Virus record (IMG/VR): IMGVR_UViG_2537562020_000011
Span: 1-23,053 of that record
Source: a virus
Taxonomy: Duplodnaviria > Heunggongvirae > Uroviricota > Caudoviricetes
Reading direction: 5' to 3' (one strand)
DNA length: 23,053 nucleotides
Part shown: piece by piece, positions 3,001 through 6,000 of the stretch
Position numbering within the stretch: position 1 is the first letter of the stretch
Layout of the letters: every line of letters begins with the position of its first letter
Made by a program: the position numbers

Positions 3001-6000
3001 TGCGCATTGATGCCGAGATACGCTTCCAGTCTTCGCGGTCGTTGTCGATAACTTCATTTTTTGCCCAGCGATGGATGCTGCCGTCAATGTTTCCGGCATC
3101 CACATCACCAGGCCAGAGAGCGTAGGCCAGTTCATCATCCAGTGTTTTCCATGTCTGCTTGTATTCGCGATGAATGGCAGCAATGACCGGGTTGATTTTT
3201 CCTGTTGAATTTTCAGTGTCTGTTGATTGGCTCTGGCGCGGGCGAGATCAACAACAGACGTGTATTTTCCGGTTTCCTTGCGTTCACCTTCGCGACGTTT
3301 TTTCCAGATGCGCATCTCTGCCTGAATTTCGGGCCATTTGGCACCAGGCTTACATTTATGCTTAACCCACCCGATGGCATGCAGCTTAAGCTCCGGATAC
3401 ATGGCGTTAACTTCTGGCATTTTCATCAACGCTTCAACGATATGTCCGTCGAATGTTGCCATGTCTTCCTGCAACAATTCCTGCGCGCTAATCACCATAT
3501 CAACGGTGATGTTTTCACATGTGTCGAACTTAACCATGACAGCGTTCTGTACTTCAGGGGCCAGCTTGTCAAAAGTGACGTTCATCGGATCTGATTCAGT
3601 CTCAACCGGGACAAAGGAAGCAGACTCCTCATCCCAGCGGTTTTCCTGCATATATTCAGCATCCCAGGAATCGAGGGCAGGGCGGGGTATACCGGGTTTA
3701 TCCTCGCAAACAAGAAATTTATAAGCGCAGTCCTGAGCAGCCGGATAATGTTCCAGGAATTGCCAGTGAAATTTTGCGCGGGCGCGACGTTCATCACCAG
3801 CTTCAATGGCAGTGGCTACAGCGACTGCACCTTCTTCCTTTATTGCCTGTTCGTCCGGAATGGCGGCGCAAATAAAGACTTTACTCATTTTGTTTTAACC
3901 TCATTACAGATTTAAGGATGAACAAATCCCTGCCATTGCTGGCATATAAAAATGAAACCGGATATTAATTACGGTGCTGTTTTAAGTCCTGCCGGGATTT
4001 CGTTATTATCCTGGTGAATAACTTTATCGACCGGATAACAGTTACCGGGAATTTTCTGTTCCACTGCGGCAACCATGCATTCTTTCATTGAGCCGTATAC
4101 GCCAGTAACCATGTCAACCGGTTCACCGGAAACAAGAAAAACCGTCAGAACAAGTGCAAATGTTGTATTCATTGCCAGCATCCTTTTTGCATCAGGCGTA
4201 AACGGGCCAGCATTGAAACAATGCATATTTTATCCAATAGCTCCCGTTCTTGTTTCCTCTTGTTAATGGCATCTTCAGTAAATACTGGGTTACTGATAGT
4301 GACACCAATTTCAAAACAACCTTCAGACGTATTAACGTTTGGTAATAACGTTTTCATTATCGCACCCTCAACAATGAATTTTGTGATGCGGTGCCTGGTG
4401 CCTCCAGGTGACGTTAACCAGTTAACAATTAACGCCGGATACAGAACCCCACCCATAACTTGGTTTTAACTGTTCCGCGTGCGCTTAGCCGCATTCACCG
4501 CATCACAAAATTCACTTTAAAAAGGACGGCAGAGCAGTCACGGAGTAAAACTGATACCGCCAAACGCCACCAGAAAATTGATAACAGAGGGCGTTGCAGC
4601 GGGGTTGTCACTTAAGCGCATGGTCAACCTGACAACCCGGTGTCTCAATGGGGGAGGAATAACCCCGCCATACTTACCGCCGCGCCATTTCGCGGAGTGC
4701 CACAACCGGAAGCGCACGGTCGACGAAAATTTAACGACAGGCTATCTATGAACCAACTACCTCGCCGTGCGCTTTCGCGTTATGCCCTGACTTTTCAGGA
4801 AAATGCCCTTTCAGTAAACTGTCAGTGCCGGATGCTCACCCGTGTCCGGCGCACGCACTCCACCTCACCCGTGGAGAACCCCTTAATTACCAACCCTCAG
4901 GAGGGTGAAATGACTAGTAAAAATGTAAATATCCAGTTTAACCACGATGTTTCTCCTGCTGGACTTGCGGATGATCTCACCGCTATAAAAACGGCAATTA
5001 TGCTACTTGCTGCTAAGTTGCCTGCGTCATCAAAGCCAGCGGAAATTTGTGACTCATTGCGTAAGATGAATTCAACAAAATGCAATGAGATGGCATCACT
5101 TATTGAAAGTGCAATTGATTTTAATGATTAATCGAAATTTCATGGCTAACTGTAACCCTCCCATCTGTGGCGGGATGGTTTAAATCGCTGGGATTAATGC
5201 CGCACTCAGTAAAATGGTTCTTAAGGGGTTCTATCCGAATCCCTTTCTTTTTCATTAACAAGCCAAACCCCTTATCAATGATATCCATTAATTCCAGGAA
5301 GTATTTTTCATGTAAATCCTGGCTATCAGAGAGCCGCTTCTCTTCGTACAGACCGATAAAGGCACGACGCACGTTACCGGATATAGTATCGATGGTTTCT
5401 TTTTCTACGGTACTCAGGTCAAGAGTCGCCAGTTGGAAACGAACTATATTCGCTGCCATTTCCTGGAATTGCATTGGTAAATCTTTAAATTCCATTATTA
5501 GCCTCGTTGGTTAGCTATTAACGTGGGTATGTAATCATTCTGGCAATGCTTAATGCCGCTGCTTTTTCCAGCCTGGTGATATCCTGCTCCAGAGCGGACA
5601 GATTTTCAGCCTGCTTAGCCCTGGCTTCATTGGCCCATTTCAGATCCTGCGCTGCATTAATTTTCTGGCGCATCCACTCATAAAGTTCATCATCGGTATA
5701 GTCTGGCGCGATGATGACGGGTTCTCGTTTCTGCATACTGATTCCTCGCGGTGCTGTTTCCCCTTAACGCCGGGGTGGCGGAACAAAAACCTGCTGCATA
5801 GTTATTAAAGTTGAACCCTGCCGTCATGTTCTTACGCCTCGGGCTGGCTACTTACCCCCTGACCACTGCCTGGTAACTCGAAGTATTGCCCTGCATTCTG
5901 TGGGGCGGGGTGGGTTGGTATGTTGTTAAGGTAACAAGTGTTACCTTTCGAGTCAATGCAATGTTGCAAAAAGTACATTTGAGGGCGTGAAAAACCCGCA

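What the first reader, a model, noticed from the sequence alone, without database searches (positions are those of the whole stretch)
3180..3260. Frame switch at a homopolymeric A5 run in the 320-codon early-left gene
Reading frames before and after minus-strand cagGAAAAAtcaacc both look like genuine coding sequence, and a one-base difference (A6 instead of A5) or a -1 slip on the Lys codon would give a continuous protein (...QQEK-INPVIAAIHREYKQ...). This is either a pseudogenising indel, a sequencing error in a homopolymer, or less likely a programmed frameshift.
Basis: seen in the sequence. Interest (0 to 1): 0.45.

Follow-up and report, generated by a model that had tools for sequence, protein, structure and literature searches.

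The report
Assembly gaps split prophage exonuclease gene
The frame break is real in this sequence, but it comes from two missing bases in a common 823-codon prophage exonuclease gene, is not at the A5 run, and is most likely a draft-assembly error, so it is ordinary.

Summary
The flagged region lies inside a minus-strand gene (window 1419-3888). In 83 related alleles this gene is one 822/823-codon ORF: a YdfE-like N-terminus plus a C-terminal Rv2179c-like 3'-5' exonuclease. The window lacks two single bases. One is missing between 3220 and 3219, 19 nt upstream of the A5 run. The other is missing between 2952 and 2951. Putting both back gives an 823-aa protein that aligns without gaps to intact orthologues. 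The A5 run (3196-3200) has the same length in all 85 sequences compared, so it is not the lesion. No slippery heptamer, downstream RNA structure or conserved split supports programmed frameshifting.

The window comes from the draft genome of ETEC strain BCE019_MS-13. Papers on this project's isolates describe 100-bp Illumina reads assembled with Celera Assembler. Neither deletion occurs in 5,426 complete E. coli genomes. They recur, in conflicting combinations, only in two other drafts from the same strain series. In those drafts the missing bases fall on sites where co-resident prophage copies differ. A close complete relative (E925) carries two intact copies that share 1.46-kb and 0.55-kb identical blocks around the region.

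Best reading: a consensus artefact in a collapsed prophage repeat (about 0.72). A genuine pseudogene is the main rival (about 0.25). Low interest.

The parts
1419..3888 (-). Whole disrupted gene: the homologue of the 823-aa lambdoid-prophage 'exonuclease' (YdfE-like N-terminus plus Rv2179c-like 3'-5' exonuclease). Here it is 2,470 nt instead of 2,472.
   Evidence: 97.8% identical to the mEp460_ev081 CDS and 92.6% to the Tritos CDS, both single 2,472-nt CDSs. Repair gives an 823-aa gapless match.
3220..3888 (-). Segment 1: codons 1-223 (MSKVF…ARANQQ) in the true frame.
   Evidence: Precomputed Pfam hits YdfE_N and YdfE_C on the 313-aa called product.
3219..3220 (-). Gap 1: one base missing between these two positions. 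It is the first base of codon 224, which is C57/A15/T11 among 83 reference alleles.
   Evidence: A 44-mer spanning it is absent from 5,426 complete E. coli genomes. A 24-mer spanning it is absent from IMG/VR. Draft 2730450 shares it.
3196..3200 (-). Its length is invariant in relatives, and it is not the lesion.
2952..3219 (-). Segment 2: 268 nt in a second frame (…TENSTGKINPVIAAIHREYKQ…RQTIFGLV).
2951..2952 (-). Gap 2: one base missing. It is the third position of a Val codon, GTC in 80 and GTT in 3 of 83 alleles.
   Evidence: A 44-mer spanning it is absent from 5,426 complete genomes. Elsewhere it is present only in drafts 2730450 and 2848050.
2947..2949 (-). Spurious TGA that ends the 313-aa called ORF (2947-3888). 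The last 90 residues of that ORF are out-of-frame translation.
   Evidence: The same alternative frame is open for 157 codons in intact genes and is sometimes annotated as a hypothetical protein.
1419..2951 (-). Segment 3: 510 codons plus the stop, in a third frame. Gene callers report it as a 499-aa ORF starting at GTG 2918.
1452..1967 (-). Rv2179c-like DEDDh 3'-5' exonuclease domain (residues 642-813 of the intact protein). The motifs DLET, NGANFD and HNALDD are readable in the sequence.
   Evidence: PF16473, E = 3e-67, on the 499-aa ORF and on the E925 orthologue.

Best explanation
The two frame breaks are single-base dropouts introduced when this draft genome was assembled. They are not a feature of the phage gene.

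The window is part of contig AQCZ01000030.1 of ETEC strain BCE019_MS-13. Isolates of this naming series were sequenced with 100-bp Illumina reads and assembled with Celera Assembler. Strains of this lineage carry at least two lambdoid prophages, one at potC and one at ompW. Their exonuclease/dicB regions are identical over blocks much longer than a read or an insert, with a short variable island between the blocks.

Inferred mechanism: reads from both copies were piled into one consensus. At some positions where the copies differ, the two alternative bases were placed in separate, half-empty alignment columns, and both columns were called as gaps. This leaves the sequence common to both alleles: CAG[C]ACAC and CAG[A/T]ACAC give CAGACAC, and TTGT[C]CGTG and TTGT[T]CGTG give TTGTCGTG.

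The real gene is very probably an intact 823-codon ORF. It encodes a YdfE-like N-terminal region, an acidic/Q-rich linker with a CxxC…CxxC motif, and a C-terminal DEDDh 3'-5' exonuclease.

Shown: the positions of the gaps, their absence from finished genomes, their recurrence in sister drafts at copy-variable sites, and the repeat structure. Inferred: the consensus mechanism, and that BCE019_MS-13 itself went through the Celera pipeline.
For: 1. Repairing the two bases restores a gapless 823-aa orthologue.

2. 44-mers spanning either gap have no match in 5,426 complete E. coli genomes. The same gene region occurs in 3,954 of those genomes, at 6,847 places. All 80 IMG/VR alleles are continuous ORFs.

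3. The only other carriers are drafts from the same strain series. E. coli 2730450 has both gaps plus 11 more deletion events and no insertions. E. coli 2848050 has gap 2 plus a deletion at 2922, but not gap 1, and on a different haplotype.

4. In 2730450, 12 of 13 deletion events fall on columns that are polymorphic among 83 alleles, against a 25% background. Binomial P = 6.5e-7, or 3e-4 when one neighbouring column is allowed. Eight of the events sit exactly where the shared backbone differs from the ompW-type allele of E1316; all but 3511 also differ from E925's ompW copy.

5. Four-gamete conflict. Deletions at 3220 and 2922 occur as del/wt (BCE019), wt/del (2848050), del/del (2730450) and wt/wt (all others). 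Simple inheritance cannot explain this.

6. The complete relative E925 has intact copies at both potC and ompW. The two copies are identical over 1,463 bp (about window 4731-3269). They differ at 22 sites between 3268 and 2921, then are identical again over 548 bp.

7. Unique parts of the contig are essentially error-free. There are 0 differences over 8.7 kb to E925's ompW prophage. There are 0 gaps over 9.9 kb to E8's potC prophage. There are 2 substitutions and no indels from window 2243 through the chromosomal flank to E925. The anomalies are confined to the repeat.

8. Relative to E925 and E8, the contig joins potC arms to an ompW-type middle, and the switch lies inside this repeat. Draft 2730450 shows the reciprocal join.

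9. Sequencing and assembly method for this strain series: PMC5469772 and PMC4462620.

10. None of the three possible repaired proteins exists among about 15 billion public proteins. This fits a hybrid consensus.
Against: No reads were available, so the error is inferred and not observed.

The papers name sister isolates (BCE001_MS16, 27xxxxx), not BCE019_MS-13 itself. Their supplementary tables were not held.

BCE019_MS-13 and 2730450 are related CS3 ETEC strains (PMC6301781). A shared real mutation is therefore conceivable for the two gaps they have in common.

In E925, both prophage copies carry T at site 2. The variability needed there must come from the strain's own copies, which I could not see.

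Most copy-variable sites in the window were resolved without a gap, so the dropout is not systematic.

This gene does decay for real in other prophages, for example the 4-bp deletion annotated in PPompW.
Confidence: 0.72

Rival explanations
1. Genuine pseudogene. The potC prophage of BCE019_MS-13 has really lost two single bases, so the exonuclease gene is inactivated and split into three frames. This would be part of the usual decay of resident prophages.
For: The sequence as deposited has the gaps. The same two gaps are in the related strain 2730450. The gene is dispensable and is seen decayed elsewhere, as in the 4-bp deletion annotated in PPompW of Stx2_14040. The neighbouring prophage in complete relatives carries many truncated genes.
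Against: Neither gap is found among 6,847 copies in 5,426 complete genomes.

In the two drafts that share both gaps, the gapped gene is linked to different prophages, potC versus ompW.

The deletions occur in conflicting combinations on different haplotypes.

The deletions sit on copy-variable sites far more often than chance allows. A mutational process has no reason to do that.

Two indels against about two substitutions in 501 bp is an odd ratio.

The adjacent unique sequence is identical to a finished relative.
Confidence: 0.25
2. Recoding. A programmed -1 ribosomal frameshift or transcriptional slippage on GGAAAAAT joins the two frames.
For: A -1 shift on the AAA Lys codon would formally join the upstream called ORF to the …INPV… frame.
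Against: Orthologues read straight through with the same A5 run, and no allele has A6 or A4 by indel. All 83 reference alleles are single ORFs apart from PPompW's unrelated 4-bp deletion. There is no X XXY YYZ heptamer in the 0 frame, by direct reading. There is no downstream structure (z = -0.33). A run of five A is far too short for efficient transcriptional slippage (general knowledge). The product would still be cut off by the second frameshift at 2952 before the nuclease domain.
Confidence: 0.01

Closest known systems
Intact 823-aa prophage 'exonuclease' / '3'-5' exoribonuclease domain-containing protein', e.g. WP_001763154.1 (ETEC E925 and E8, potC prophage) and VUF53467.1 (phage mEp460_ev081)
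   Same: Same gene, same position (dicB - DUF1482 - exo - xis - int) and same integration site next to potC. The repaired protein aligns without gaps, 97% identical to mEp460.
   Different: The window lacks one base at 3219/3220 and one at 2951/2952, so three frames are needed to read the gene.
Frameshifted copies in sister drafts: E. coli 2730450 (APXE01000112.1) and E. coli 2848050 (IMGVR_UViG_2537561932_000020)
   Same: The same single-base gaps at 3220 and/or 2952, in the same strain series.
   Different: 2730450 has 11 further deletion events and is linked to ompW. 2848050 lacks gap 1 and has an extra gap at 2922.
PPompW prophage exonuclease pseudogene (Stx2a14040_0030, 'frameshifted by deletion of 4bp')
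   Same: The same gene, annotated as a frameshifted pseudogene in finished phage records.
   Different: A different lesion: 4 bp at about window 2493-2496. It is present in many independent finished records, so it is credibly real.
RecE / exodeoxyribonuclease VIII of the Rac prophage
   Same: Relatives are often annotated 'exodeoxyribonuclease VIII'. A central stretch of about 400 nt is 82% identical to recE of Rac-SA53. The gene sits in the same early-left position.
   Different: No RecE-type nuclease domain was detected. The catalytic domain here is a DEDDh Rv2179c-like 3'-5' exonuclease. The 'exonuclease VIII' label is a misnomer for this gene.
Programmed -1 frameshift sites such as dnaX (A AAA AAG)
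   Different: No proper heptamer, no stimulatory structure, and no conservation of a split gene. The frames actually change 19 nt upstream.

Membership tests
Lambdoid-prophage YdfE-N/C + Rv2179c-like exonuclease (823 aa) | C-terminal PF16473 (Rv2179c-like 3'-5' exonuclease) domain | tested here: met
   E = 3.3e-67, full-length model match on the 499-aa ORF, and the same on the E925 orthologue.
Lambdoid-prophage YdfE-N/C + Rv2179c-like exonuclease (823 aa) | N-terminal YdfE_N / YdfE_C regions | tested here: inconclusive
   Precomputed hits PF27430 and PF27432 are listed for the 313-aa product. The local Pfam copy gave no hit on it.
Lambdoid-prophage YdfE-N/C + Rv2179c-like exonuclease (823 aa) | Colinear full-length match to intact members, and conserved position between DUF1482/dicB and xis-int | tested here: met
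   Gapless 823-aa alignment after repair. Same gene order in mEp460, Tritos, E925 and E8.
Lambdoid-prophage YdfE-N/C + Rv2179c-like exonuclease (823 aa) | Single uninterrupted ORF | tested here: not met
   Two 1-base gaps in the window as deposited. Judged most likely artefactual.
Programmed -1 ribosomal frameshift site | Slippery heptamer X XXY YYZ in the upstream frame at the junction | tested here: not met
   The upstream frame reads CAG GAA AAA TCA. No heptamer of that form is present.
Programmed -1 ribosomal frameshift site | Stimulatory RNA structure a few nucleotides downstream | tested here: not met
   MFE -18.6 kcal/mol against a shuffle mean of -17.6, z = -0.33.
Programmed -1 ribosomal frameshift site | Two-frame arrangement conserved in orthologues | tested here: not met
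   83 reference alleles are one ORF apart from PPompW's unrelated 4-bp deletion, and the A run length is invariant.
RecE / exonuclease VIII | RecE-type C-terminal nuclease domain | tested here: not met
   The Pfam scan of the intact orthologue returns only Rv2179c-like and a weak RNase_T match.
Collapsed-repeat consensus artefact of a short-read assembly | The locus is a multi-copy repeat longer than the reads and inserts in the strain's lineage | tested here: met
   E925 has potC and ompW copies with 1,463-bp and 548-bp identical blocks. Reads were 100 bp with 300-bp inserts.
Collapsed-repeat consensus artefact of a short-read assembly | Errors sit at sites where the copies differ and are absent from finished genomes | tested here: met
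Collapsed-repeat consensus artefact of a short-read assembly | Raw reads contradict the consensus; depth is about doubled | not testable with these tools
   No access to reads or to the rest of the assembly.

The most novel reading that the evidence does not exclude
The single-base deletions are real and recurrent. Some process acting between co-resident prophage copies, for example faulty repair of heteroduplex DNA during gene conversion, would repeatedly delete bases exactly at mismatched sites. That would inactivate the prophage exonuclease independently in several ETEC strains.
Probability: 0.03. Interest if true: 0.5.

Novelty: not a real feature. Interest (0 to 1): 0.06.

Why it matters
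Its value is mainly cautionary. A gene that looks split or recoded in a 2013-era short-read draft turns out to be an ordinary, widespread prophage gene once finished genomes are consulted.

The split has already left odd products in public databases: a 313-aa 'exonuclease family protein' with a 90-residue nonsense tail and a 499-aa fragment. Similar artefacts probably affect other multi-copy prophage genes in the same set of ETEC drafts. Pseudogene counts or 'truncated gene' calls drawn from those drafts should be checked against reads.

If the deletions were real, they would only add one more decayed prophage gene.

Tried and rejected
1. A5 versus A6 indel. Rejected: the A run is identical in close relatives and shows no length variation in 85 sequences.

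2. Programmed frameshift. Rejected on heptamer, structure and conservation.

3. Searching the out-of-frame tail for independent frameshift alleles. The 157-aa hits were alternative-frame ORFs called inside intact genes, so they were not informative. The search did turn up P0047 from draft 2730450.

4. Reading the window as a fine patchwork of E925's two copies, as direct evidence of read mixing. Dropped. In 3268-3165 the window simply carries the common allele, and E925's copies are the deviant ones. The P/O pattern is therefore not diagnostic.

5. Treating the 7-bp and 1-bp differences at about 4460 and 4446 as further artefacts. Rejected: the window matches E1316's ompW prophage there with no difference, and three finished genomes match window 3690-4640 at equal length.

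6. Looking for an intact protein identical to the repaired gene. None exists for N, H or Y at residue 224.

7. Confirming from supplementary tables that BCE019_MS-13 is in the Celera-assembled set. The tables are not held.

8. Locating a third exonuclease copy in E925. Not possible with the record-level tools.

Full report
**What is at the site.** The minus strand of window 1419-3888 carries one gene that gene callers split into a 313-aa ORF (2947-3888) and a 499-aa ORF (1419-2918). A megablast of the region against phage records finds single 2,472-nt CDSs. They are annotated 'exonuclease', 'exodeoxyribonuclease VIII' or 'encoded by cryptic prophage CP-933P'. Examples are mEp460_ev081 (97.8% identity), Tritos, HannyBb and PhiR42_1. 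The gene lies between dicB/DUF1482 and xis-int, in the early-left region of a lambdoid prophage. Its C-terminal 172 residues are an Rv2179c-like DEDDh 3'-5' exonuclease (PF16473, E = 3e-67). The N-terminal ORF has precomputed YdfE_N and YdfE_C hits. No RecE-type nuclease domain is detected, so the 'exonuclease VIII' label on relatives is a misnomer. A central stretch of about 400 nt is shared with recE of Rac.

**Checking the observation.** The A5 run is at 3196-3200 as stated. Alignment with intact relatives shows that the A run is identical in them (GGAAAAATC). The window instead lacks one base 19 nt upstream, between 3220 and 3219: CAACAG^ACACTG against CAACAG[C/A/T]ACACTG. A second base is missing between 2952 and 2951: TTGT^CGTG against TTGT[C/T]CGTG.

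Across 85 aligned sequences the A run never changes length. Inserting one base at each site gives a 2,472-nt ORF. Its 823-aa product aligns without gaps to mEp460 (799/823 identical) and Tritos (740/823). The correct junction is …ARANQQ[N/H/Y]TENSTGKINPV….

**Programmed frameshifting.** This reading is not supported.
- The 80 IMG/VR alleles and the phage and chromosomal copies are single ORFs. The one exception is PPompW's unrelated 4-bp deletion.
- The upstream frame reads CAG GAA AAA TCA, which contains no X XXY YYZ heptamer.
- The 86 nt downstream fold no better than shuffled sequence (z = -0.33).
- A slip at A5 would still run into the second frameshift before the nuclease domain.

**Where the window comes from.** The exact 313-aa product occurs on one contig only: AQCZ01000030.1 of GCA_000354315.2, E. 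coli BCE019_MS-13 (EMV45728.1). This is a CS3-expressing ETEC strain used alongside strain 2730450 in PMC6301781. [quoted passage not shown] The method was Illumina HiSeq 2000, 100-bp reads with 300-bp inserts, assembled with Celera Assembler (PMC5469772; PMC4462620). I could not confirm from the supplementary tables that BCE019_MS-13 itself is in those studies.

**Real mutation or assembly error?** Several independent lines point to error.

1. 44-mers spanning either gap have no match in 5,426 complete E. coli genomes. The same 501-bp stretch occurs in 3,954 of those genomes, at 6,847 places. The best matches are 503 bases long, that is, with both bases present.

2. The only other sequences with these gaps are two drafts from the same series. 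E. coli 2730450 (APXE01000112.1) has both gaps plus 11 further deletion events and no insertion, all in this one gene. E. coli 2848050 (an IMG/VR contig; EMW27498.1) has gap 2 and a deletion at 2922, but an intact site 1, and it has a different haplotype.

3. The deleted bases are not randomly placed. In 2730450, 12 of 13 events fall on columns that are polymorphic among 83 reference alleles, where 25% of columns are polymorphic. Binomial P = 6.5e-7, or 3e-4 with one column of tolerance. Eight events coincide exactly with differences between the shared backbone and the ompW-type allele of the finished genome E1316; all but 3511 also differ from E925's ompW copy. Both window sites are polymorphic: C57/A15/T11 at site 1, and C80/T3 (a Val third position) at site 2.

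4. Deletions at 3220 and 2922 show all four combinations among strains. Single origin plus inheritance cannot account for that.

5. In the two drafts that share both gaps, the gapped gene is attached to different prophages: potC in BCE019_MS-13 and ompW in 2730450.

**The repeat structure explains why this gene is affected.** The finished ETEC genome L1_E925 is almost identical to the window in unique sequence.
- Window 4633-13342 has 0 differences to E925's ompW prophage.
- From window 2243 through 7 kb of chromosomal flank there are 2 substitutions and no indel.
- Strain E8's potC prophage matches window 12671-22542 at 99.87% with no gap.

E925 carries two intact 823-codon copies, one next to potC and one next to ompW. 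The two copies are identical over 1,463 bp (about window 4731-3269). They differ at 22 sites between 3268 and 2921, then are identical again over 548 bp. Both window gaps lie in or at the edge of that variable island, which is flanked by repeats longer than the reads and inserts.

Relative to E925 and E8, the window contig joins potC-type arms to an ompW-type middle, and the switch occurs inside this repeat. Draft 2730450 shows the reciprocal join. None of the three possible repaired proteins exists among about 15 billion public proteins. That fits a hybrid consensus, although a rare natural mosaic is also possible.

**Likely mechanism (inferred).** Reads from two or more copies were aligned into one consensus. 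At some variable positions the alternative bases were placed in adjacent, half-empty columns, and both were called as gaps. The observed strings are exactly what is common to the two alleles. CAG[C]ACAC and CAG[A/T]ACAC give CAGACAC. TTGT[C]CGTG and TTGT[T]CGTG give TTGTCGTG. The 2730450 sites behave the same way: GAAAA[C/T]ATC gives GAAAAATC, and CTCT[C/G]TGG gives CTCTTGG.

**Caveats.**
- I have no reads.
- BCE019_MS-13 and 2730450 are related strains, so shared real mutations are conceivable.
- In E925 both copies carry T at site 2, so the variability needed there must be in the strain's own copies.
- Most variable sites in the window were resolved without a gap.
- This gene does decay for real elsewhere, as in the PPompW 4-bp deletion.

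I put the artefact at about 0.72, a genuine pseudogene at about 0.25, and recoding at about 0.01.

**Comparison with what is known, and verdict.** The gene is a member of a very common E. coli prophage family, present in about 73% of complete genomes. The disruption is either an assembly error or a trivial pseudogene. Nothing here is new biology. The useful outcome is a corrected description of the lesion, a corrected gene model (823 codons in one ORF), and a warning about single-base dropouts in multi-copy prophage genes in this set of drafts.

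Noticed in passing
window 1-22542 (switch zones about 2244-4855 and about 12671-13791): Relative to finished relatives (E925, E8), the contig is a hybrid. The int/xis/3' exo arm and the late region match the potC prophage. Window 4633-13342 is identical to the ompW prophage. Draft 2730450 shows the reciprocal join. This is either a real exchange of cassettes between two resident prophages or a mis-join across two repeats.
   Followed up: partly
window 4524-4575 (-): DicF antisense sRNA (Rfam RF00039, 70.8 bits), upstream of dicB (4169-4357, -), as in Qin-like prophages.
   Followed up: no
window 11430-11605 (+); 16695-16767 and 16868-16941 (+): A sok antitoxin RNA (RF01794, 121.6 bits) next to a hok-family gene, and two phage-borne tRNA genes. 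The matching region of strain E8 is annotated tRNA-Ile and tRNA-Arg.
   Followed up: no
window about 4446 and about 4460: A 1-bp and a 7-bp difference from E925 between DicF and dicB. At first sight they look like further dropouts. They are natural alleles: the window matches E1316's ompW prophage there with no difference, and three finished genomes (E1316, TW10690, 2014EL-1346-6) match window 3690-4640 at equal length.
   Followed up: yes
window 2947-3380 (-), alternative frame of the exonuclease gene: In intact copies of the gene, an alternative frame stays open for 157 codons. Several public genomes annotate it as a 'hypothetical protein' (P0031-P0038). These are probably spurious overlapping gene calls.
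   Followed up: partly
L005 (E. coli 2730450, APXE01000112.1) 3440-5910: This draft's copy of the gene has 13 deletion events and no insertions, and it is chopped into at least five called ORFs. Neighbouring genes on the contig look intact.
   Followed up: yes
literature: PMC6301781: That paper reports a 'truncated cas3' in BCE019_MS_13, 2730450 and three sister drafts. Given the dropouts seen here, the truncation may be worth re-checking against reads.
   Followed up: no
window 1419-3888 and relatives: Relatives are variously annotated 'exodeoxyribonuclease VIII', 'exonuclease' or '3'-5' exoribonuclease domain-containing protein'. Only the DEDDh Rv2179c-like domain is detectable, so the RecE-type name appears to be inherited from a shared central segment.
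   Followed up: partly
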